Source: Chiloscyllium plagiosum
Lineage: Eukaryota
DNA: 43,513 bases
Reading direction: 5' to 3'
Assembly (NCBI RefSeq): GCF_004010195.1
Contig: NC_057717.1
Coordinates: forward strand, 104,450,827-104,494,339
The position numbers were made by a program, and so were the translations under genes. Positions 1,556 to 41,813 of the stretch are shown here, piece after piece. Below the pieces are notes generated by a model. The model made no database searches. It saw only the letters and a list, made by a program, of their open reading frames with translations, and was not told the DNA's origin. How positions within the stretch are numbered: the stretch's first letter is position 1; every line of letters begins with the position of its first letter.

Positions 1556-1654
1556 GGGAGAAAATGAGGACTGCAGATGTTGGAGGGCTTATGCCCGAAA
1601 GATCAATTCTCCTGCTCCTCAGATACTGCGCTTCTCCAGCACCACACTTTTCGA
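1556..1654. mobile_element. Short, internally deleted Penelope-derived element
   Basis: ggagaaaatgaggactgcagatg...agggcttatgcccgaaa...ccagcaccacac; same family as 4572-5469 and 24981-25173. Confidence 0.7.
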
Positions 1655-1879
1655 TGATAGTCGGTGTGGATTTGTCAGGGGGAGATGGTGTTTAACACAT
1701 GAGGAGATTGGGTGTGTAGATTTGGGTAGTGCAGTTGATTCAGCCTATTTGGACTTCGGTAAGGCTTTTAACAAGTCATTGCATGGGAGACTGATCAAGA
1801 AGCTAAGACCCCACAGGGTCCAGGGTAATCTGGCAAATTGGATACAAAGCTGGCTTAGTGCAGGAGGCAGAGGGTGATG

Positions 1880-3523: not shown

Positions 3524-4571
3524 TAAGTTAAGAGGGAGGTAATCCAGAATGAGAGTTAACTTGCAAGGAATTTACAAGTAGACTGCAAGAGATTCTACAA
3601 GTCTGTGGAAAGAAAGGCGAGTGAAGACAAGTTAAGACCCCTAACAATCTGAAATGGGAGAATTAATAATAGGGAAACAAAGAAATGGCAGATCAATTAA
3701 ACAACTATTTTATTTAAAACAAAAACAGAACTTGCTGGTGAATTCAGAGGGTCTGGCAGTGTCTGTGGGGAGAAATGTTTCATAACTGACAGCAGCAGTT
3801 TATTTGTGTCTTCTTCTGTAAAGTCAGAACTAACTGCCGGAATGCTCGAAAAAGGAGGGTCCTTTGAGAAGGAGGAACTGAAAGAAATTCTTGCTGGAGA
3901 AGTGAAAGTAACTGAAAGCTGGTAAATCCCCAGGCCCTGATAATCTACACTCGAAGGTGCAACACGAGGTGACTATGGAAAAAGTGGGTGTGTTGGTTAT
4001 CTTCCAAAGTTCTGTAGATTCGGCAACACTCCCGGCAGATCAGAGGGTGGAAATCTTAATGAGAAAGAGGAAATGAGAAAACCAGAAATTACAGGTTCGT
4101 ATAACATCAATAGTAGCAAAAATACTGGAGCCTATTATAAAGACTGTGAATACAGGACACTTAGTAAATACCAAAGAGATTACATAAAGTCAACATGGAT
4201 TTATTAAAGGAAAATTGTGTTTGACAAACTGGAGTTTTTTGAGAATGTAATTGGTTGAATAGATGAAGGAGAACCAATGGATGTGGTGTACTTGGTTCAT
4301 CAGAAAGCTTTTGATAAAACACTTAGAGGTTGGTGTGCAAAATCAAAACACATACGTTTGAGAATTGGTCTGCAGACAGGGAATAAATGGTTCCTTTTCA
4401 GAGTGCAAGGTTATACCAAGTGGGATACCACAGGAATCAATGCTTGGAGCCCAGCTATTCACAATATATGTCAATAATTTGGATGAGAGAATCATAATAT
4501 TTCCGAGTTTTCCAACAACACAACTAGGGGAGCTGGTAAGGAGGAAATAAGAAGGCTTACAGATAATTAAG

Positions 4572-5469
4572 GAGGAGAAAGTGAGGACTGCAGATGCTGG
4601 AGATCAGAGCAGAAAATGTGTTGCTGGAAAAGCGCAGCAGGTCAGGCAGCATCCAAGGAACAGGAGAATGTTTCGGGCATAAGCCCTTCTTCAGGAATGA
4701 GGAAAGTGTGTCCAGCAGGCCCCTCCCCCAAGTCCCTCCTCCCTACCTTTTATCAACCCAGATGGCCTCCTTCTTCAAAGACCACAATTTCCCCCCCGAC
4801 GTGGTCGACGATGCCCTACACCACATCTCCTCCACTTCCCGCTCCTCCGCCCTTGAGCCCCGCCCCTCCAACCGCCACCAGGACAGAACCCCACTGGTCC
4901 TCACCTACCACTCCACAAACCTCCATATATAGCGTATCATCCGCCGTCATTTCCACCACCTCCAAATGGACCCCACCACCAGGGATATATTTCCCTCCCT
5001 CCCCTATCAGCGTTCCGAAAAGACCACTCCCTCCGTGACTCCCTCGTCAGGTCCGCACCCCCCGTCAACCCAACCTCCACTCATGGCACCTTCCCCTGCA
5101 ACTGCAAGAAATACAAAACTTGCGCCCATACCTCCCCCCTTACTTCCCTCCAAGGCCTCAAGGGATCCTTCCGTATCCGCCACAAATTCACCTGCACCTC
5201 CACACACATCATTTATTGCATCTGCTGCACCCGATGTGGCCTCCTCTATATTGGGGAGACAGGCCACCTACTTGCGGAACGTTTTAGAGAACACCTCTGG
5301 GACACCCGAACCAACCAACCCAACCACCCCGTGCCTCAACACTTCAACTCCCCCTCCACCAAGGACATGTAGGTCCTTGGACTCCTCCATCACCAGACCA
5401 TAGCAACACGATGGTTGGAGGAAGAGCCTGAAGAAGGGCTTATGCCCGAAATGTCGATTCTCCTGTCTG
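4572..5469 (+). mobile_element. 5'-truncated Penelope-like element (Neptune type) with inverted 5' pLTR and GIY-YIG endonuclease remnant
   Basis: 15-bp TSD ttacagataattaag (4557-4571, 5470-5484). A frame near 5086-5350 reads GTFPCNCKKYKTC...FTCTSTHIIYCICCTRCGLLYIGETG..LAERFREH...PVPQHFNS (GIY-YIG with CCHH); upstream PLVLTYH linker; hammerhead-like cores at both ends in opposite orientation. Confidence 0.9.
5428..5455 (+). ncRNA. Minimal type I hammerhead ribozyme motif (PLE-associated)
   Basis: CTGAAGA-A-GGGC-TTAT-GCCC-GAAA-TGTC; matches CUGANGA/stem II/GAAA/NUH, with a likely CpG-decayed ACGU palindrome. Confidence 0.65.
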
Positions 5470-7433
5470 TTACAGATAATTAAGACAAGTTGCATGAGTG
5501 GACACATAATATAGGGCAGCGAAATAAAATGTCGAGAAATGTGAAGTTGTCCACTTCAGTAAGGAAAACTCTTCTCTAAGGGTTCAGAGACTTTGGAATT
5601 TTAAGGAATAGAACCAGTCTTTTAAGGCTGAGGCAGATAGATACTTGATAAGCAAGGGGGTGAACGGGTAGAGAAGAACACCGAGAAATTGGATCAGCCG
5701 TGAAATTATTGAATGGCAGAGCTGAGTGGCCTACTTCTAATTCATATGTAAACCACATCAAGTTCCCCTGAGATTATGGAAGATGCTTTATAAATACAAG
5801 TTCTTTCTTGTCAAAATGATGAATGGGGGGAGGAAACCTTTTGCCCTTGGCATTTCCTGGGTTATATCCAGCAAGATTTATCTCTCTCTGTTCTGCTTTA
5901 ATTGACAGAATGCTCTGTTTTTGTCACAGAGCAACAACATGTGCCTGTGATAGGCCATGTTCAGTTGTAAGTTACTGACAGAGGGGCATAGCAAAGCCAG
6001 GATGAACGTCCCTCAAGATAGATTTTTGCCATCTTTTTGACAGATTACATAGTGGTTTCCTGTGCTGGGCAAGGGATTTACACATTTCCAACCAAGACAC
6101 TGACAACAGGTAGATGACCACTGACGCAAGATAAAAATAAACCAAGACAGCTTTAAAATTTTATTTTAGGGCAGTGATTTAAAGCAGGGTATTATGTAAT
6201 CTCCAGATGATGCTAATATTAGACTTCTAAACATACAAAACAGGAAACGTGACCATAAACACACCAGTACCAATGCAATAACGGAACAGAAATACTTGGT
6301 TTTTGTAACAGAAACTGCTCTGGAAGGAAAATTTGAAGGGGGTTGCATTGGGGACTATGAGTTATTTACTTAAACTGGTTGAAGCATGGCTCATTACACT
6401 TAAACTATTTAATAAATTATTACTAAAGACACTGAAAATTGTATAAATGAAACCAGGTATTTGGTTGTGAGACAATCACCAGATTACCACTCACTCAGTA
6501 CTATGCTTATGTAGTAACTGAGCCTCCATCCCTGCTAGTGAACTGGCAATTCTTCTGGTAGCATCTGTTGTTAACTACAGTGCAACAACTACAAGGATAC
6601 ATGGCCGAGAGGTTTCTTCAAATTGAGTACTAAGAAGCCAACAGTTCCAACAAACAAAGGATCGAAAAACTTGTTCAAAATACTCCCAGAAAACGCACAT
6701 GAGCCTGCCAGTTTTAGAATTGTGGAGAAAAATAACACCTGATGCACAGGCCTGGTACTCAGCTGGCAGGATTAATACAAGAGACACTCTCCACTGCTGG
6801 TTCATCAGATTCATGGGGTGACTTTCCTGTGGAATTTCAGGAACCCTGTTAAAAAAAACAATGACCCTGTGGAAATTTCTACCCGCCCATTGCTGGGTGC
6901 ATGTTAAGTGGGTGTGCTTGATTGTGTTGGTACCAAAGCCCATTTTTACAGGATCATTGAGGATAGCAGGATGCCATTTAGCCCACCACGCCCCAGCTGC
7001 TTTATGCAAGTTTTATGGACTTGGCCCCACTCCCCTGCACTTTCTCTCTAGCTGTCCAACGTTGAAAAAAACTTCTCCAAATCTGTTTGAAAGGTACTAT
7101 TGAGTCTATTTCCCCAATGCTTCCAGATCAGAACTCACTGCATTAAAAAACAAATCATCTTATCTACAGTTCTTGTTGCCAAATATCTTAAACCTTTGGC
7201 CTTTAGTTACTGAGTCTCCGAACAATGGAGACTTTTTTTAAAAAAACTGTGTCTCCACCATGTTTGTCACTTAACAAATAAAGAGTATGGGATGAGTGAT
7301 AGTAAGCACATAAGCACTCAGTCACCAATGTGCATTACAAATCCTGCAAAAGTCTTTCAACTTGCCCATGTCACCAGAACAAATCCTCTTTACAGCCTCC
7401 TGTTTATCTTCAGTTAGATAACTGGAAACATTG

Positions 7434-7643
7434 TCTAAATGGGTGGGGCTGGAAAAGCACAGCAGGTCAGGCAGCATCCAAGGAGCAGGAGCGCCAACGT
7501 TTTGGGCATAAGCCCTTCAGCAGGTTCCTGAAGGGCTTAAGCCCGAAACATCGACTCCTTGGATGCTGGCTGACCTGCTGTGCTTTTCCAGCACCACCCT
7601 TTTTGACTCTCATTCTCTAGCATCTGCAGTCCTCACTTGGTCC
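7434..7643. mobile_element. Non-autonomous Penelope-derived hairpin element
   Basis: Inverted arms gctggaaaagcacagcaggtcag / ctgacctgctgtgcttttccagc; 15-bp TSD taactggaaacattg (7419-7433, 7644-7658); two degenerate hammerhead cores in the centre. Confidence 0.85.
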
Positions 7644-7769
7644 TAACTGGAAACATTGCACTGAATTTACAACAGAAACAATGTAAAGGGGAACATTTTA
7701 TATTGATTGGTTAGCAAGTGGGCAATAAGTGAATTGGTTGGTGATCTTGGTAGTTAACTGTCAATTATT

Positions 7770-8027
7770 CTAGATTAGAGTGGTGCTGGAAAAGCACAGC
7801 AGTTCAGGCAGCATCCGAGGAGCAGGAAAATCAAATCAGGAATAGATGAAGGGCTTTTGATGAAGGGCTATTTCTGATGAAGTCTATTTCAGTCTATTCC
7901 TGATGAAGGGCTTTTGCCCGAAATGTCGATTTTCCTGCTCCTCGGATGCTGCCTGAACTGCTGTGCTTTTCCAGCACCACTCTAATCTAGAATCTGGTTT
8001 CCAGCATCTGCAGTCCTTGTTTTTACC
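7770..8027. mobile_element. Non-autonomous Penelope-derived hairpin element with perfect 65-bp arms
   Basis: 7768-7832 is the exact reverse complement of 7928-7992; 15-bp TSD taactgtcaattatt (7755-7769, 8028-8042). Confidence 0.9.
7900..7927 (+). ncRNA. Minimal type I hammerhead ribozyme motif (PLE-associated)
   Basis: CTGATGA-A-GGGC-TTTT-GCCC-GAAA-TGTC; canonical CUGAUGA and GAAA boxes, 4-bp stem II, GUC cleavage triplet. Confidence 0.7.
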
Positions 8028-9036
8028 TAACTGTCAATTATTATCTAATTGGTGAATTTTTTTATGGTAAGGCCTTATTCAGAGTCCACTTGCTAACCAG
8101 TTAGAACGGTCTTGTATAATATAAAATGTAGTTCTGCTTTGGTATTCTTGCGCATGTCCTGAGGAGTGTTAACAATGACAAGCTTTAATAAAATGTCACT
8201 TTCTTCCAGCAATGGGTGGGATTCATTTTAGTCTCCCAAAGACTACCCAAACAAATCACTAGTAGTTGCAAAGATGCCAATACTAGCTAATTATAGAAAG
8301 TTTATGACACATATATATTTTTAAATAACAATTAGCAGGTTTTACAAGTGCATTTTACTTGGAAATATCCATTAGTCTAAAAAAAAAATCATTTTCAGTG
8401 CCTGAGGTTTTGTAACGTATCAACGTTGCACAGAATCGACATTTTGCAAATCTGACTTGGCCTTGAAAAGTCACTCTGTATACATAACAGACCTGAAACC
8501 AACCACTGATTTTATTTTTAAAACTTAAGAATAATCCCTGTCCAGCGATTTAAAAAAAATTAATACAATAATATCATTGTCTTTTCTATGTTTCCGACAT
8601 TTGCTTTGTAACTCCCAGTTATCTTTTCTGTATCATCTGCAACCTGGATCACCAATATTATTGGAAACCAGATACTAGGAAACACACCAGCATTGCGACA
8701 GGAGTCAGAGGTCCCTTACCCATGGGTTCTACTCTTGAGTAATAGCACAACCCAAAGCTAGGAGAGTTATTTTTTAATTCCCTTTATTCTTTCACAGGAT
8801 ATACATAAAATTCTCTGTACAGTCTATGACTTCCTGAACGTTAGTCATGGAGCTGATCGTTCACTAGAAAATGACCCAAAACCTTAAAGCCTTTTGATTG
8901 CATTTTCTTTTAACGAAGTCTGTATTTAGTAGGTAATCACTTTTTTCCACCAGTTTACCACAGTTTAACTGGTAAAGAAAACAGAATTGAATGGTGCCTG
9001 ACATTGCAACATTGGGATTTTCTTCATTACAAAGTG

Positions 9037-11260: not shown

Positions 11261-14200
11261 CTAGAGAAAAGCCAACATTGAAACTGAATCACCATTAGTG
11301 GTCACTGTGCTGTTCAGGCTGGGATTTCAATGCAGATCCGGAACTAATGAGACCAGTTACTCACTGGCAGCCACTGAGATTGAAAACCAACACAAACAGA
11401 ATAGTCATGTGATTATGAGCCACTGGGAGTGGTTTACCAAGCCTCTGACATTTTGAAGTGTGGGGTGATCATCTGTCCATCCATCCCCACCCCTCCTTAT
11501 GACAATGGATTTGAAGACTTAATACATGACCTGAAGGTAAAACCCTGTGATCCAACTCTGCTGGAGTGCAGAGATTCAAACCCTGACGAGCTTTTTGCCC
11601 AAGACCATTAACTGAACTACCCTTGTCTTGGAGCAGCTGGCTGTGATGTATCATAACTGACTGCAGCACAGAGTGACAGGGCACAGGTATACACAGGTCA
11701 TTCGACATAACACAAGCATCGTTAACGCAAATTCGCTGTAACACGATTGACGAATTGGGGACATTGTTTCTAAAGTGTAAGCTTTTAAAACGTTTGTTGG
11801 CGGCAATGCAATTACATTGCCAACGCTTGAAGCACTGTTTCTAAAATGTGATTTTTCTATAATGTGGGGTTGCACAAGAACACAACCATCGTGTTATAGA
11901 AGAACTACCTGTACCAGAGATTCCCCACAAAGGACTGTTTTATTGTTGATCAGGTACTTCCTCAAAAGATGAGCAAAATGTAAGTGACATGCCCAGAATT
12001 CAATTCTGTTGTTAACTCTCACCCCCACCAGGACTCTTTCAATTTCTTTGACCTGCAGAATCAAAAAGATAGCAGTCTTAAATGGTAGTTCAGGCAAAAT
12101 CCTTCAACCAAGCAATAGGGGCATTGAGACTATTGGAACTATGTGCTTGCTTGGTGAACTGAAGAAAGCAGGCTGCAAATGGTCCCCGGTTAGATCACAA
12201 GCATTGCTGCATTGCAATAAGTTTACACATAGGTTAGGGCCACGCACACACTTTTTGCTCAAAAACATACCTTTATGCAGAGCTTCATTTGTCATTCTGT
12301 TGACATTGCGAAAGGTACTTTCAGGGACCAGCCATCTCATTGCTATATCAACACAGCTTTTCCGGAAGGTACTCCAAACACTACCACTATATAAAATGAT
12401 TGCCAAGGTGAGAGAATGGGAGGACAGGAGGGGAAGAGAGAGAGAGAGGTACATTAGTCTAAATTTTCATTCCAAGGTCTTATTGAATGAAATTCACTAC
12501 GTAACTTACCTTGTTTGCCCCTGTACCGCAGTTAAGTCACCAACTCCCATAGTTGCAAAGACACCAGTGTTTAGATTCCATGTGCCCTTCAAACAAGTAT
12601 GATAGGTCTTAGGTCTGAAAAATCAGTGACAGAGTTTGATAATATTTCACAGGTACACATTCAGCTTACTAACACAGGATTGTTTTGGGGGACACTCAAA
12701 ACTAAATTGTAATACACAATGGTTCCAGTGCTGAGAGTGGGAACATACTGCCAGAGTTACAATGTGGTAGCTAGCCAGAATAGAAAATTTTAGTCTAGAA
12801 TTCTGCAACTCACTCCTTGAGTGTGTGCTGGTATTCAATAATAATTTTAACGAAGAGGAGAGGATATATACTTAAAGGAGAGAAAACTACAGGGCCTGTG
12901 GGAATGAACACAGAAGTAGAACTGATTAGATAGGTCTTTCAAAGAGCTGACATAGACACAATGGGCCAAATTGCCTCCGCCTGTGCTATAAGATTCTGTT
13001 CTATGTTCTTTGAGGCCAAGGGAATATTGATGTGGACCTTTCCTTCAGCTGACAAAAAGGAAACATGATCTGTGCAAGTAGTAGTTTTCATAGATCAAAT
13101 GAGCTACTGCTCCAGAATGTACTGACTCCACTATCATATGGTGGTTAAAATAAATCATAACACATCCATCCATTCTCATGTATCTGAACATCAGATTCAC
13201 CTGGATGCTCCTGGTACGGGGGGTTCTAACTATGAGGAGAGGTTGAGTAGATTAGGATTATTTTCACTGGAAAGGAGGTGATTGAGGGGTGACCTGATTG
13301 AGGCCTACAAAATCATGAGAGGTGTAGACAGGGTGGATGGCAAGCAATTTTTTCCCCAGAGTGGAGGACTCAATTACTAGGGGTCATGAATTCAAAGTGA
13401 GAGGGGAAAAGTTTAGGAGAGATATACATGGAAAGTTCTTCACGCAGAGGGTGGGACGCATTGCCAGCAGAGTTGGTAGGAGCAGGAATGATAATATCAT
13501 TTAAGATGTATCTAGAGAGATATATGAATGGGCAGGGAGCAAAGGGATACAGATCCTTAGGAAATAGGCGGCAGGTTTAAATAGAGGATCTGGATCAGCG
13601 CAGGCTTGGAGGTCCGCAGGGCCTGTTCCTGTGCTGCAAGGTTCTTTGATCTTTGAATTTTCTCAGCCATACTAAATATATGACCTTGTTTATATGTTCA
13701 AATATAAGCTTTCCAACCATACAACTTTCAAGATCACTACACTCCAGTCCTAGCTTCCTTACGTTCCGAATCAATATTGCCCCACACCATGGGCAGCTGT
13801 GCCTTCAGAATCCCTGGGCCTTAAATCCTTCTCAGCCTGTCCATCTCCAAAGATGCTCCTTAAAACCCAGCTCTTTGACAAAAAATTAAGTTTTGGTAAA
13901 GCTTCTGTAAAGTGCTTTGGAACATTTTAATTTAAAGGTGAATTGTGATTACAAATTGTTATTTGCTGTTTACAGCTCAGTGGTATCTCAATTCCTGAAA
14001 TCTATAGTGCTATATAGAATGGACCTTCTGTATTGCGTTCCTATAATAAACATGTCTAAACTTGAATCATACTCACTCATTATGACTTGGTTGCAAGATA
14101 ACCAAACCTAGAAATGGACAACCAATTAATATTGCATGTGAAGAGGATACTGACTGATTGGAGGATGTTAGGCATAGGGATGCAGCAGGAACTGCTGTCA

Positions 14201-24400: not shown

Positions 24401-26384
24401 TGATTCAGTACAAAATTTTGTTTGATATTTACTTCTGTGAAACATCTTCAACTTCTAATAGTTTAATGGCACTTGATCAATGCAAGCTGTTATTAAGAAA
24501 CTAAAACTGATCAACACAAGACCATCAGACAGAGAAAATGGACAATGTCAGGACAAAGGAGTTCAGCACTGGAGTTTAGAGTATTCTTTATTTACAAGGA
24601 AACCTTTGATACACACCTTTTTCAACTTGTCATGGATGTTGAACTTCCACCAGTACAGGTAATACACATAGTATGGTAACTCATCAATATCCTGCTCTGG
24701 TACATCCCGAGTGTAGGACAGCACATACCGACCACATTTTGTAAAGCCAAGGAATATGTGACTGTGGTAAGGGAATGGGAACAAGGGCATATGGAGACAG
24801 ATTAAAACTACAGAAAGTAAAAATGAACGTTACAATTCCTGATTAATAGGAATGAGCTTTTCAGACATCCAAAATCCAAGAAAACATTCAGATACATATA
24901 AAATCTACTTGTTAAAGTCTAACACCAATTTTTGGGTGCGCTGCCTAATTTTTCTCTGCCTTGCCTGAAAGCATTGGTTAGGAGAAAGTGGGGACCGCAG
25001 ATGCTGGAGATCAGAGTCAAGAGTGTGATGCTGGAAATGCACAGCAGGTCAGGCAGCATCAGAGGAGCAGAAGAATTGATGTTTCGGGCATTCCTGATTC
25101 CCGAAATGTCGATTCTCCTGCTCTTCGGATGCTGGTCGACCTGCTGTGCTTTTCCGGCACCACACTCTCGACTCTGAAAGCACTGGTTGTTTAATCAAGT
25201 GTAACTCCACACAGTTGCCTTTTGGTTACTTTGCTCATGAATCACAGGGAGGAACACATTTTCTCCATTCAACTTCGCTTGACAAATTTCATTGGGTTAT
25301 CATTGCATTGAGTGTGTGTGTGTGTGTGTCAGTGTCAGGAGGGAGTTGTTACACCCTACAGTAATCATTTTGTGCACGCGGAGAAATAATTATTTCTCTC
25401 TGTCAAACATAAGGAAACTGAGATGTATTCCAGCTTAGGTACTTCTGCCCAAATGAGATCATTTTCACTCAGCACAGACCAAGAAATAAAACCTCCTGAT
25501 CTGTGAGGCTTGTTTGATCAGGCCATCCGTTTATATAATGAATGGTAGAATAGGCTTCAGGGGCTGAATAGCATCCTTCTGTTCCCACATACCCATGAGT
25601 TAAATTCTCTGACCCATGAGGAAAACCATTCGGTTGTGCACTTTGAACATTTCTACATCACGAATGACTGAGTCAAATTGCACAGATAGGTGGTCAAAAT
25701 TCAAATCCAACAATCCTGAGAACATGCAATAGGCTCCCAGTAGATTTCAGCCCTACCATAAACACAATGAGAGAAACTACAGACTGCTGAATTGTTGCCT
25801 GTCACTAACCCAGCGAGTACAGTTTTGTGGAGATTTGAGGTCAAATCTGAAATTAGAACGTTACTCATTATCTTTATCGTGGTCTGCAATTTCAATGGAG
25901 CACCCCAGCAAGGGAAAACCATTCTGTTTAGAAACTTTTGTACCAGAGGCAAACAATAAAAATTTTGATATTAATATCTAAATACTGCAGAGTTTAGTTC
26001 AATCTCCACATATATGCCCTGAGATACTAGAGCAAAACAAATGCATTTGTCTGAAAAATCCTTTGGCAGAGGCCTGCCTAAAATGAAGGGTTAACACCTC
26101 CACACAATGGTGCAATGTTACAGGTGAATCCACTGGTATCTCACAGAATAACGGCAAGAGCCTGGAGCCTGGCATTCTCCTCAAGCTAAGTCAATGAATG
26201 ATCTAAAAACTCTTTTTACATTTAAAGCAAAAGGTTGAAAAGGCCAGAACGAAAATATCTACTGACTTAGGAAATAGTTTACATACCCAGCTAGTAAAAA
26301 ATCATCATCCACAATGTTCTTCAGGGGAACGCAAAGAATGGGAGGCAAATTTTGGAACATTCGGTGAGAGAACTGGCCTGTTAT
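11205..26384 (-). CDS. DCAF15: DDB1- and CUL4-associated factor 15, exons 2-13 (5' partial; exon 1 not seen)
   Basis: 12 GT-AG exons join in phase to 2055 nt (684 aa plus TAG). Hallmark peptides [89 protein letters not shown]. Confidence 0.97.
11694..11911. mobile_element. Tigger/pogo-like MITE
   Basis: Imperfect TIRs caggtcattcgacataacac / gtgttatagaagaactacctg; TA on the right flank (CA on the left). Confidence 0.6.
12271..12386 (-). CDS. DCAF15: DCAF15 exon 12
   Basis: 116 nt, [38 protein letters not shown]; tag/gtatgt. Confidence 0.96.
12510..12614 (-). CDS. DCAF15: DCAF15 exon 11
   Basis: 105 nt, [34 protein letters not shown]; cag/gtaagt. Confidence 0.95.
13203..13655 (+). mobile_element. 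CR1-type LINE 3' end
   Basis: [23 protein letters not shown] motif; ends gggcctgttcctgtgctg...tctttg. Confidence 0.85.
15020..15102 (-). CDS. DCAF15: DCAF15 exon 10
   Basis: 83 nt, [27 protein letters not shown](R); aag/gtaagg. Confidence 0.95.
15391..15454. repeat. (GT)25(GC)7 compound microsatellite
   Basis: Read directly from the sequence. Confidence 0.95.
15768..15896 (-). CDS. DCAF15: DCAF15 exon 9
   Basis: 129 nt, [43 protein letters not shown]; cag/gtaagt. Confidence 0.97.
17719..17807 (-). CDS. DCAF15: DCAF15 exon 8
   Basis: 89 nt, [29 protein letters not shown]; cag/gtaatt. Confidence 0.95.
19804..20622 (-). CDS. DCAF15: DCAF15 exon 7 (long linker exon)
   Basis: 819 nt open frame, DEKGQILY...[13 protein letters not shown]...[15 protein letters not shown]...DDDD; cag/gtgagt. 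Confidence 0.95.
21588..21758 (-). CDS. DCAF15: DCAF15 exon 6
   Basis: 171 nt, [48 protein letters not shown]; cag/gtatgc. Confidence 0.97.
21850..21986 (-). CDS. DCAF15: DCAF15 exon 5
   Basis: 137 nt, [37 protein letters not shown]; cag/gtttga. Confidence 0.93.
22925..23031 (-). CDS. DCAF15: DCAF15 exon 4
   Basis: 107 nt, [35 protein letters not shown]; tag/gtgagt. Confidence 0.96.
23160..24125 (+). mobile_element. Decayed LTR-retrotransposon pol fragment, probably Copia (GalEa-like) integrase C-terminal region
   Basis: DQLPAF...[19 protein letters not shown]...FKPGK.VYY...W...IIGKD resembles the post-integrase HLNALH.AR.AF motif I associate with GalEa-type Copia; many disruptions. Confidence 0.5.
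24617..24761 (-). CDS. DCAF15: DCAF15 exon 3
   Basis: 145 nt, [17 protein letters not shown]...[16 protein letters not shown]; cag/gtgtgt. Confidence 0.97.
24981..25173. mobile_element. Non-autonomous Penelope-derived hairpin element (centre deleted)
   Basis: ggagaaagtggggaccgcagatgctgg start; inverted arms; 15-bp TSD ctgaaagca(t/c)tggtt at 24965-24979 and 25174-25188. Confidence 0.85.
26287..26384 (-). CDS. DCAF15: DCAF15 exon 2
   Basis: 98 nt, [32 protein letters not shown](G); cag/gtatgt. Confidence 0.95.

Positions 26385-32186: not shown

Positions 32187-41813
<9,627 letters not shown>

What the first reader, a model, noticed from the sequence alone, without database searches (positions are those of the whole stretch)
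4557..8042. Penelope-derived hairpin elements carry minimal hammerhead ribozyme cores
Seen: CTGA(T/A)GA-A-GGGC-N4-GCCC-GAAA-TGTC at 5428-5455 and 7900-7927, with damaged versions at 4666-4694 (-), 7496-7555 (both strands), 1583-1604 and 25076-25115. Established: Penelope-like retroelements encode type I hammerhead motifs in their pLTRs, including minimal forms where stem III is replaced by an ACGU palindrome and which cleave as dimers. Inference: the short ORF-less palindromic copies are non-autonomous ribozyme-bearing retroelements mobilised by the Neptune-type GIY-YIG/RT element whose remnant is at 4572-5469. This partner system is the best candidate for under-described biology here. The best copies read ATGT instead of ACGT and stem I pairing is short, so activity is uncertain.
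Basis: partly seen in the sequence, partly recalled or inferred. Interest (0 to 1): 0.7.

Follow-up and report, generated by a model that had tools for sequence, protein, structure and literature searches.

The report
Penelope retroelement ends carrying minimal hammerheads
The hairpin-shaped repeats are ordinary, mostly dead tail-end copies left by Penelope-like jumping genes, each carrying the small hammerhead ribozyme motif already described for such elements.

Summary
The motif is real. CTGAWGA-N-GGGC-N4-GCCC-GAAA occurs exactly at 4671-4694(-), 5428-5451(+) and 7900-7923(+), with 0 expected by chance, and 126,163 times in the 3.56 Gb genome. It has the published features of the minimal type I hammerhead of Penelope-like elements (PLEs).

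GAAACGTC follows 86,892 of the 126,163 cores; TGTC (10,285) and CATC (12,808) are the CpG-decay forms.

The "hairpin elements" are not a separate self-copying family. They are the standard PLE insertion unit:
- an inverted 5'-truncated copy beside a direct copy;
- a roughly 37-nt "tail" on one side only;
- target-site duplications of 8-17 bp;
- centre junctions that differ from copy to copy;
- the same sequence variants as the long, ORF-linked copies.

I found no evidence of self-cleavage. Copies starting at the cut site are rare (2 of 53 arm-selected copies), RNA reads show no pile-up of ends, and no Rfam hammerhead model matches.

One point is not explained. In two of three subfamilies, copy 5' ends pile up 0-7 nt before the CUGA box.

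This scan reached the same "known kind" verdict on other windows of this genome.

The parts
4557..4571 (.). Left target-site duplication (15 bp) of insertion 1; its right copy is at 5470-5484.
   Evidence: Identical 15-mers read. Read flanks diverge at 4572-4575 (table 7).
4572..4609 (-). Optional 'tail' (about 37 nt) of the inverted copy of insertion 1.
   Evidence: Loose ends at 4573/4574 and at 4609 in RNA and DNA runs (table 7). Copy 3' ends are bimodal genome-wide.
4610..4719 (-). Inverted 5'-truncated copy: arm, a hammerhead core at 4671-4694 that lacks 4 nt at the cleavage site, and 25 nt of element 3'UTR.
   Evidence: CGAC insertion seen in reads (table 4).
4720..4754 (+). 35 nt of element 3'UTR in direct orientation, out of place (a rearrangement junction).
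   Evidence: Matches the 3'UTR of long copies L029 and L068.
4755..5427 (+). Decayed C-terminal part of the PLE ORF (linker plus GIY-YIG nuclease, with stops). The last codons and about 270 nt of 3'UTR are deleted, so the ORF abuts the hammerhead.
   Evidence: Translation. Pfam GIY-YIG E 6.8e-5 and 2.2e-4 on the 171-aa frame. Compared with L068, L029 and L051.
5428..5455 (+). Minimal hammerhead core of insertion 1, ending GAAATGTC (ACGT decayed to ATGT). The predicted cut is after C5455.
   Evidence: In one search table 3, 111 of 133 RNA reads covering 5452 carry C.
5456..5469 (+). Arm stub: only 14 nt follow the cleavage site before the target-site duplication.
   Evidence: arm extent 11.
7434..7644 (.). 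Insertion 2: a hairpin copy with both hammerheads damaged (7500-7523 on the - strand, 7528-7552 on the + strand). The tail is on the right arm only. Target-site duplication at 7420-7433 and 7645-7658.
7770..7832 (-). Insertion 3: inverted arm without tail, running from d1 to about d63.
   Evidence: Target-site duplication at 7755-7769 and 8028-8042, read.
7833..7895 (.). Centre of insertion 3: short duplications of the 5' half of the hammerhead.
   Evidence: read by eye.
7896..7927 (+). ATTC (5' strand of helix I) plus the intact 28-nt hammerhead ending GAAATGTC. The predicted cut is after C7927.
   Evidence: In one search, 609 of 750 RNA reads at 7924 carry C, and contig flanks break at 7896 (table 7).
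7928..8027 (+). Direct arm (7928-7990) and tail (7991-8027) of insertion 3.
   Evidence: arm extent 99.
1557..1655 (.). Rearranged remnant: an inverted tail joined to a partial hammerhead (stem II and GAAA only) and an arm.
24980..25173 (.). Hairpin copy with damaged cores. The tail is on the left arm only. Target-site duplication at 24965-24979 and 25174-25188 (1 mismatch).

Best explanation
These are insertion products of canonical endonuclease-positive Penelope-like retrotransposons (PLEs). At least three related subfamilies are present; I call them A, A2 and B.

Element layout (shown). The element's pseudo-LTR (pLTR) carries, about 270 nt after the ORF stop:
- a minimal type I hammerhead: AUUC, CUGA(A/U)GA, one unpaired A, GGGC-N4-GCCC, GAAA, and an ACGU palindrome in place of helix III, with C17 as the cleavage nucleotide;
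- a conserved 'arm' of about 60 nt;
- an optional 'tail' of about 37 nt.

How the copies arise (inferred from published PLE biochemistry). The PLE reverse transcriptase starts at one of two internal sites. That gives the two alternative 3' ends, about 62 and about 97 nt after the cleavage site. It can extend both cleaved target strands, which gives an inverted 5'-truncated copy next to a direct one. Copying usually stops early, so most copies hold only hammerhead plus arm. Such copies lack an ORF and upstream sequence and are dead on arrival.

The window (shown). It holds five such insertions. Only two keep a whole core, and both have lost the ACGU palindrome to CpG decay.

Ribozyme activity (not shown). 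Whether the ribozyme cleaves in vivo is unknown. Every copy with the hammerhead joined to its arm must come from RNA that was uncut at that site.
For: Motif features match the published PLE minimal hammerhead (PMC4209133, results and discussion read): an unpaired base after the CUGANGA box, a G10.1-C11.1 pair, palindromic positions 15.2-16.2, and a 4-5 bp helix I.

Abundance:
- 126,163 exact cores, against 0 for the reversed control.
- 192,628 exact 20-nt arm words.

Ancestral ACGU: CGTC follows 86,892 cores, TGTC 10,285 and CATC 12,808, of 126,163.

Link to the PLE ORF:
- Long copies run from the ORF end through about 270 nt of 3'UTR into the hammerhead.
- GIY-YIG domain in the window copy.

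Two 3' ends. Of 77 copies, 40 end at d60-74, 28 at d95-100, 1 at d75-79 and 8 earlier. The tail sits on one side only in all 4 window insertions that have target-site duplications.

Copy classes. Of 69 copies with unmasked upstream sequence:
- 23 are hairpins;
- 20 start within 6 nt of the CUGA box;
- 11 keep 7-60 nt of element sequence upstream;
- 15 keep more than 60 nt.

Hairpins are single events:
- Exact target-site duplications of 8 nt or more in 19 of 42 rows, against 2 of 820 shuffled pairs.
- Centre spacing varies from 6 to 67 nt, and the junction letters differ between copies.

The same variants occur in hairpin, short and long copies.

Conservation between subfamilies (10 A x 18 B natural copies):
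- hammerhead 0.89 identity;
- arm d17-45 0.86;
- upstream 3'UTR 0.34-0.42.

Published anatomy agrees: inverted 5'-truncated copy and 30-40 bp tail (PMC8557442 passages); two internal RT start sites and extension of both strands (PMC11167929 main text).
Against: - No Rfam hammerhead family matches, either at gathering score over the whole window or at E up to 10 over 4400-8200. Those models expect a helix III, so this is weak evidence.
- The predicted double-hammerhead dimer fold is less stable than the alternative dimer folds: -9.3, -13.1 and -9.3 kcal/mol against dimer minimum free energies of -21.9, -18.3 and -24.6 kcal/mol for A, A2 and B.
- Plain random 5' truncation does not explain the pile-up of 5' ends just before the CUGA box in A/A2.
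- The RT domain of the autonomous element was never seen. ORF stretches read N.
- The copy samples come from the first 2.4 Mb of one contig, and most were chosen among cores followed by CGTC.
Confidence: 0.85

Rival explanations
1. One reading: the short palindromic copies are a self-propagating non-autonomous retroelement family, SINE- or retrozyme-like, with its own master copies, mobilised in trans by the PLE.
For: - Very high copy number: 126,163 cores.
- Most A/A2 copies begin at nearly the same place, 0-7 nt before the CUGA box. This could mean a defined short template RNA.
- Published proposals exist that HHR-bearing non-autonomous repeats derive from PLE pLTRs (10.64898/2026.07.22.740005, abstract and results; PMC7229834 passages).
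Against: - Hairpin centres differ from copy to copy.
- The same loop and arm variants occur in long, short and hairpin copies.
- Short copies lack the conserved TTTATCT block and everything else upstream.
- The arm holds a T4 run, which argues against Pol III transcription (read; the rule itself is recalled).
- Subfamily B copies mostly extend into the 3'UTR: 19 of 25.
Confidence: 0.1
2. Non-LTR retrozymes: head-to-tail tandem repeats whose transcripts self-cleave into monomers and circularise.
For: They carry a type I hammerhead and coexist with PLEs, as reported for animal retrozymes (PMC7229834 passages).
Against: - None of 78 sampled copies has a direct arm repeat within 200 nt upstream; the best score was 15 of a possible 45.
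- All 4 close same-strand pairs examined are duplicated or nested hairpins, not unit arrays.
- No RNA ends appear at the cut site (table 6).
Confidence: 0.03
3. DNA-level foldback or MITE-like transposons whose terminal inverted repeats happen to resemble a PLE end.
For: Inverted arms of 60-100 bp flanked by target-site duplications.
Against: - Arms end at the two PLE-type 3' termini, with a tail on one side only.
- Of 69 sampled copies, 46 are not hairpins at all.
- Target-site duplication length varies from 8 to 17 bp.
Confidence: 0.02

Closest known systems
Minimal hammerheads (min-HHR) in the pLTRs of metazoan Penelope-like elements (Cervera and De la Pena 2014, PMC4209133)
   Same: - The CUGANGA and GAAA boxes.
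- An unpaired base before helix II.
- The G10.1-C11.1 pair.
- A palindromic dinucleotide in place of helix III.
- A 4-bp helix I.
- Mostly single dispersed motifs, plus pairs on opposite strands.
- Location in the repeat that flanks an RT/GIY-YIG ORF.
   Different: - Helix II is only 4 bp here; that paper reports 7-8 bp in Schistosoma.
- The copy number is far higher than the roughly 4,000 (coelacanth) and 9,000 (Xenopus) that paper reports.
- Cleavage was not tested here.
Canonical EN+ PLE insertion units (Craig et al. 2021, PMC8557442; Frangieh et al. 2024, PMC11167929)
   Same: - Heavy 5' truncation.
- An inverted 5'-truncated copy adjacent to the direct one.
- A 30-40 bp tail on one side, set by two alternative RT start sites.
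- AT-rich target ends: several duplications here end in ATT (read by eye).
   Different: - Here the RT start sites lie before the ORF start codon. In subfamily B the ATG is about 38 nt after the tail. In the Anolis element the start sites are 111-118 nt inside the ORF.
- The 5' ends of subfamilies A/A2 cluster at the edge of the hammerhead. I did not find this described in the texts I read.
Animal non-LTR retrozymes (Cervera and De la Pena 2020, PMC7229834; Li et al. 2026 preprint)
   Same: HHR-bearing, ORF-less, related to the PLE pLTR and presumably dependent on PLE enzymes.
   Different: Retrozymes are tandem arrays with canonical hammerheads and circular RNAs. These copies are solitary or inverted pairs with the minimal motif, and no unit-length RNA was seen.
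HDV-like ribozymes at the 5' end of R2 and L1Tc retrotransposon RNAs (described in PMC6765202, passages)
   Same: A self-cleaving motif at or near the 5' end of a retroelement RNA. Here this holds only if the 5'-end reading in the section on the most novel reading is right.
   Different: A different ribozyme class. HDV-like ribozymes cut at their own 5' edge; a hammerhead cuts at its 3' side.

Membership tests
Type I minimal hammerhead of PLEs (min-HHR) | Catalytic boxes CUGANGA and GAAA in the right order and spacing around a helix II. | tested here: met
   Exact at 3 window sites with 0 expected; 126,163 in the genome against 0 for the reversed control.
Type I minimal hammerhead of PLEs (min-HHR) | [quoted passage not shown] | tested here: met
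   A (rarely G or C) precedes GGGC...GCCC in the listed copies. The feature is as defined in PMC4209133.
Type I minimal hammerhead of PLEs (min-HHR) | No helix III loop; palindromic positions 15.2-16.2 (ACGU), allowing a dimer helix III. | tested here: met
   Family level: 86,892 of 126,163 cores are followed by CGTC. The two intact window copies read ATGT and do not meet it.
Type I minimal hammerhead of PLEs (min-HHR) | A short helix I (4-5 bp) pairing the bases before CUGA with those after the cut. | tested here: met
   AUUC pairs with GAAU at 4 of 4 positions in A2, and with GAUU at 3 of 4 in A and B.
Type I minimal hammerhead of PLEs (min-HHR) | Self-cleavage after C17. | not testable with these tools
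   Indirect looks were negative or silent:
- no pile-up of read ends (table 6);
- 2 of 53 arm-selected copies start at d1/d2;
- the dimer fold is not favoured.
Rfam hammerhead families | A score at or above gathering for a curated hammerhead covariance model. | tested here: not met
   0 matches at gathering; no hammerhead among 11 matches at E up to 10. The models include a helix III that min-HHRs lack (my reading).
EN+ Penelope-like element insertion | A GIY-YIG endonuclease ORF upstream of the pLTR. | tested here: met
   PF01541, E 6.8e-5, 23.5 bits against a cut-off of 22.6. ORF ends are seen in long copies.
EN+ Penelope-like element insertion | A telomerase-like RT domain in the same ORF. 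| not tested
   The window copy is truncated downstream of the RT, and ORF stretches of other copies read N.
EN+ Penelope-like element insertion | An inverted 5'-truncated copy, a one-sided 30-40 bp tail and target-site duplications. | tested here: met
   Definitions from PMC8557442.
Neptune clade of PLEs | A Zn-finger-like CX2-5CxxC motif in the linker before GIY-YIG; placement in an RT phylogeny. | tested here: inconclusive
   The window copy reads C-N-C-KKYKT-C, which fits only if one residue has decayed. No phylogeny was possible.
Non-LTR retrozyme | Head-to-tail tandem repeats of one unit, each with a hammerhead. | tested here: not met
   No direct repeat of the arm within 200 nt in 78 copies. 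All 4 close pairs examined are duplicated hairpins.

The most novel reading that the evidence does not exclude
In subfamilies A/A2 the 5' ends of the retrocopies pile up at the first base of helix I, the A of ATTC, 4 nt before CUGA. That base sits in an initiator-like YYATTCC word, 30 nt downstream of a TTTATCT block. This block is conserved between subfamilies whose 3'UTRs are otherwise only 34-42% alike.

The boldest reading that the evidence does not exclude has three parts:
1. The pLTR promoter starts transcription right at the ribozyme.
2. The hammerhead therefore sits at the extreme 5' end of the element's RNA. Cleavage there would shed a capped 32-nt leader, functionally like the HDV-like ribozymes of R2 and L1Tc.
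3. The tens of thousands of ribozyme-headed short copies are run-off cDNAs. They would be made when the PLE enzyme starts at its internal start sites in the 5'-proximal pLTR of an ordinary, non-tandem transcript.

This would also explain why only tandem copies can reproduce whole elements.

Against it: subfamily B has the same two words but few such short copies. Of 25 B copies, 19 extend 12 nt or more. No RNA 5' ends were seen.
Probability: 0.3. Interest if true: 0.5.

Novelty: new member of a known kind. Interest (0 to 1): 0.2.

Why it matters
As it stands this is annotation. A very abundant repeat (at least 190,000 arms) in this genome can be labelled as PLE pLTR fragments carrying the known minimal hammerhead. 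Hairpin-shaped copies should not be called microRNA precursors or a new element class.

Two by-products may be useful to people working on PLEs.
- **Uncut templates.** At least 86,892 copies keep the sequence across the cleavage site (GAAACGTC followed by the arm) intact, and starts at the cut site are rare. Together these suggest that uncut RNA is the usual template. That agrees with the in vitro result for the Anolis element.
- **A sharp 5' boundary.** The subfamily-specific boundary at the ribozyme's edge is a cheap handle on where PLE transcripts start or where the enzyme stops.

Tried and rejected
**Rfam.** Nothing at gathering score over the whole window. At E up to 10 over 4400-8200, only sub-threshold microRNA, snoRNA and other models hit the inverted repeat. 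I rejected these as hairpin look-alikes.

**RNA runs.** No RNA holder was listed for the stretch.

**Laid reads.**
- Run X19 (raw poly-A single-cell RNA reads): 3,780 reads, on the repeat parts only, on both strands, and no place where many molecules begin or end. This library type is poor at showing RNA ends.
- Run X20: nothing laid.
- X4 and X15 are contigs and cannot show ends.

**Self-cleaved templates in the genomic record.** Only 2 of 53 arm-selected copies start at d1/d2. None of the 77 core-selected copies ends at C17; the shortest arms are 7-13 nt.

**Retrozyme-type tandems.** Rejected.

**Dimer fold.** Not the predicted minimum free energy fold. This is thermodynamics only and is not evidence against protein-assisted activity.

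**5' pLTRs of longer subfamily B elements (30 loci, read by eye).** Starts are scattered: about 18 in the arm or tail, 4 at 4-17 nt before the CUGA box, 6 with long 3'UTR and 2 complex. This neither confirms nor excludes a fixed RNA 5' end.

**Flank of insertion 1.** By eye it looks like a decayed LINE reverse transcriptase, but Pfam gave no RT hit on two stop-free frames.

**Paper not held.** Lunse, Weinberg and Breaker on PLE hammerhead dimers is not in the library. I saw only its title, in the reference list of PMC6765202, and that review's summary.

**Not opened.** Supplements of PMC4209133, which may list cartilaginous-fish motifs.

**Slips corrected.**
- Searches failed on stop codons; I replaced them with stop-free ranges.
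- One search failed on pattern length; I shortened the pattern by one base.

Full report
**Coordinates used.** 'u' counts bases upstream of the CUGA box, so u4 is the A of ATTC. 'd' counts bases downstream of the predicted cleavage site, so d1 is the G after C17. In one search, positions are given relative to the cleavage site; there -28 is the C of CUGA and -32 is u4.

**1.
- The pattern CTGAWGANGGGCNNNNGCCCGAAA matches exactly at 4671-4694(-), 5428-5451(+) and 7900-7923(+), and with two mismatches at 7500-7523(-). None of 100 shuffles gave a match.
- The (-) copy at 4671-4694 has a whole core but lacks four bases at the cleavage site (direct reading). In one search table 4, 166 of 613 reads have CGAC there.
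- Both cores in 7500-7552 are broken.
- 1583-1604 and 25076-25115 are partial motifs in rearranged copies.

**2. It is one very large repeat family.**
- The window's own genome (3.56 Gb) holds 63,156 + 63,007 = 126,163 exact cores, against 0 for the reversed pattern.
- It holds 192,628 exact copies of a 20-nt word from the flanking arm.
- Of the first 100 forward arm words listed, 47 have an exact core 44-67 nt upstream.

**3. Yes.**
- Of 126,163 cores, 86,892 are followed by CGTC, 10,285 by TGTC and 12,808 by CATC. The remaining 16,178 carry something else.
- TG and CA are the two products of CpG decay, so the ATGT of the window copies is a decayed ACGT.
- Reads from other copies agree. At 5452, 111 of 133 RNA reads carry C. 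At 7924, 609 of 750 do (table 3).

**4. What the element is.** I read 78 distinct core-bearing copies: L001-L078 plus the window. Most were chosen among CGTC copies in the first 2.1 Mb of contig C1, which is a bias toward young copies.

There are three related subfamilies:
- A: CUGAAGA box, loops TTAT, TCAT or TAAT.
- A2: loop CTGT, arm starting GAAU.
- B: CUGAUGA box, loop TTTT.

Long copies show the end of an ORF, then about 270 nt of C/T-rich 3'UTR, then ATTC, the hammerhead and the arm. The window copy at 4755-5427 is the decayed C-terminal part of that ORF. Its GIY-YIG domain scores E 6.8e-5, 23.5 bits against a cut-off of 22.6. On the longer 171-aa frame it scores 21.9 bits, just under the cut-off. 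In the window an internal deletion has removed the last codons and the 3'UTR, so the ORF abuts the hammerhead by accident. ORF stretches of other copies read N (withheld), so I never saw the RT domain.

**5. The anatomy is that of ordinary PLE insertions.**
- *3' ends.* They are bimodal. Of 77 copies with unmasked downstream sequence, 40 end at d60-74, 28 at d95-100, 1 at d75-79 and 8 earlier. This is the optional 30-40 bp 'tail' described for PLEs (PMC8557442 passages). It is explained by two adjacent internal RT start sites (PMC11167929 main text).
- *Read breaks in the window.* Flanks of other copies break at 4573/4574 (tail end) and at 4609 (short end) (table 7).
- *Copy classes.* Of 69 copies with unmasked upstream sequence, 23 are hairpins, 20 start within 6 nt of the CUGA box without an inverted arm, 11 keep 7-60 nt of element sequence and 15 keep more than 60 nt.
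- *Hairpins are single events.* Exact target-site duplications of 8-17 nt flank 19 of 42 rows (two hairpins are counted from both strands). Shuffled pairs gave 2 of 820. The script misses some duplications that are clear by eye.
- *Target-site duplications in the window:* 4557-4571 / 5470-5484, 7420-7433 / 7645-7658, 7755-7769 / 8028-8042, and 24965-24979 / 25174-25188. In each of these four insertions the tail sits on one arm only. Craig et al. draw the same arrangement.
- *Both strands extended.* The Anolis enzyme cleaves and extends both target strands in vitro. That gives a ready mechanism for the inverted pair. For this genome that step is inference.

**6. Not a separate hairpin family.**
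- The spacing between the inverted arm and the direct CUGA box ranges from 6 to 67 nt. The junction letters differ between copies. The hairpins are therefore made anew at each insertion, not copied from a master.
- The main variants (A/TTAT, A/CTGT, A/TCAT, T/TTTT) each occur in at least three of the four copy classes, including both hairpins and copies extending more than 60 nt upstream.
- Retrozyme-type arrays were not seen. None of 78 copies has a direct arm repeat within 200 nt. The four close same-strand pairs I fetched are duplicated or nested hairpins.
- Longer subfamily B elements exist. The tail-to-5'UTR junction occurs 1,463 times at up to 2 mismatches. In 30 loci read by eye, many carry internal deletions, and each deletion has different end points. 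This again indicates independent events.

**7. Within dead copies the question has no meaning, so I compared subfamilies. Over 10 A and 18 B natural copies, the mean pairwise identity is:

| Region | A-versus-B identity |
|---|---|
| Hammerhead | 0.89 |
| ATTC (helix I, 5' strand) | 0.91 |
| Arm d17-45 | 0.86 |
| Arm d1-16 | 0.72 |
| 3'UTR, proximal stretch | 0.34 |
| 3'UTR, distal stretch | 0.42 |

The differences inside the hammerhead fall at N7 and in loop II. The test is therefore passed, although the arm is conserved about as well as the ribozyme.

**8. Activity: nothing for it, nothing decisive against it.**
- No Rfam hammerhead model matches.
- The double-hammerhead dimer fold scores -9.3, -13.1 and -9.3 kcal/mol for A, A2 and B. 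The dimer minima are -21.9, -18.3 and -24.6. An overlapping GUCGAU self-pairing competes with ACGU.
- Poly-A single-cell RNA reads cover the repeats on both strands and show no pile-up of ends. This looks like passive transcription inside host RNAs, but the library type is unsuited to finding ends.
- The genome itself is a record of templates. Among the 53 of the first 100 forward arm words that lack an exact core, the 5' boundary lies as follows:
  - at d1/d2 in 2;
  - elsewhere in the arm in 3;
  - at -3 to -8 in 4;
  - inside stem II (-12 to -21, mostly hairpins) in 11;
  - at -24 to -36 in 21 (one with masked flank);
  - further upstream in 12.
- Templates cut at C17 therefore left almost no copies. 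Every copy with core and arm joined came from uncut or religated RNA.
- This agrees with the published findings for the Anolis element: low in vitro activity, protein-assisted cleavage, unprocessed RNA as the dominant substrate, and no read ends at the cut site.

**9. One thing left over: a 5' boundary at the ribozyme's edge.** For CUGAAGA cores (A/A2) the genome counts are:

| Native upstream bases required | Count |
|---|---|
| None | 83,516 |
| ATTC (u4) | 51,997 |
| CATTC (u5) | 38,104 |
| TCATTC (u6) | 31,935 |
| CTCATTC (u7) | 28,401 |
| 12 native bases* | 20,016 |

*The last pattern is one base shorter at its 3' end.

- The loss per added base averages 7,880 over u1-u4. It is 13,893 at u5, 6,169 at u6, 3,534 at u7 and about 1,677 per base over u8-u12. 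So the ends cluster at u0-u7, with the largest single step between u4 and u5.
- In the sample, 37 of 49 A/A2 copies keep only 1-5 native bases and 7 keep 12 or more. In B, 19 of 25 keep 12 or more. The hot spot is therefore specific to A/A2.
- Contig flanks also break at 7896, which is u4 in the window (table 7).
- u4 lies in a YYATTCC word, 30 nt after a TTTATCT block. That block is 0.74 identical between A and B, inside 3'UTR that is otherwise 0.34-0.42 identical.
- I read this as a possible core promoter with the RNA starting at the ribozyme. The likeness to initiator and TATA positions is recalled knowledge, not a test.
- Rivals are a stop of the enzyme at the edge of the folded or protein-bound ribozyme, or an unknown processing step. 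The scattered starts of the 5' pLTRs of longer B elements and the lack of the hot spot in B weigh against a simple promoter story.

**10. Comparison with what is known.**
- The motif, its place in the pLTR, its dispersal as single and opposite-strand copies and its doubtful activity are all in Cervera and De la Pena 2014.
- The insertion anatomy is in Craig et al. 2021 and Frangieh et al. 2024.
- The idea that HHR-bearing ORF-less repeats derive from PLE pLTRs is in Cervera and De la Pena 2020 and in the 2026 preprint of Li, Clavereau and Pollet (abstract and results read).
- My searches 'hammerhead ribozyme + shark + retrotransposon' (3 papers, none relevant) and 'Penelope + shark + transposable elements + genome' (17 papers, listing only) showed no description of these particular subfamilies. 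I did not open supplements.
- Earlier notes of this scan on other windows of the same genome reach the same verdict. They call the genome shark-like, which I did not test.

**Verdict.** The catch is correct but of a known kind, and the 'partner system' reading should be dropped.

Noticed in passing
Genome-wide; in the window at 7896 (u4) and at the hairpin centres: In subfamilies A/A2 copy 5' ends cluster 0-7 nt before the CUGA box, with the largest single-base drop between u4 and u5 (51,997 to 38,104). Subfamily B lacks this hot spot: 19 of 25 copies extend 12 nt or more.
   Followed up: partly
L022, L029, L031, L068 and other long copies; 30 nt upstream of the A of ATTC: A TTTATCT block is conserved between subfamilies A and B (0.74 identity), inside 3'UTR that is otherwise 0.34-0.42 identical. 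Together with the YYATTCC word it has the spacing of a core promoter.
   Followed up: partly
L079-L108 (subfamily B, tail-to-5'UTR junction): 1,463 copies carry the tail followed by about 38 nt and an ATG-initiated ORF start. Many of the 30 read have internal deletions that join the first 50-150 nt of the ORF to the 3'UTR or hammerhead at different points. By eye, 8 of 22 donor points fall 75-90 nt before the CUGA box, which suggests a template-jump hot spot.
   Followed up: partly
Family level, d-3 to d4 around the cleavage site: The bases spanning the cut (GUCGAU) are self-complementary with two G-U pairs. In the cofold they out-compete the ACGU helix III pairing.
   Followed up: no
window 3900-4556 and 5485-5600: Insertion 1 sits inside what reads by eye like a decayed LINE-type reverse transcriptase ORF. 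Pfam gave no RT hit on the two stop-free frames tried.
   Followed up: partly
L109, L112, L117, L122, L132, L137, L147, L151: In hairpins whose direct copy is truncated inside the hammerhead, the break falls within the stem II palindrome (GGGC-N4-GCCC). This would be expected if that palindrome mediates snap-back or strand joining during insertion.
   Followed up: no
window 7792-7968: The inverted arms score against plant microRNA precursor models far below gathering (35.3 against 95 bits). Such copies could be mis-annotated as microRNA hairpins.
   Followed up: yes
window 14178-14197 and 40503-40522: Two matches to the arm word at 3 mismatches lie outside the five insertions described. I did not inspect them; they may be chance matches or older fragments.
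   Followed up: no
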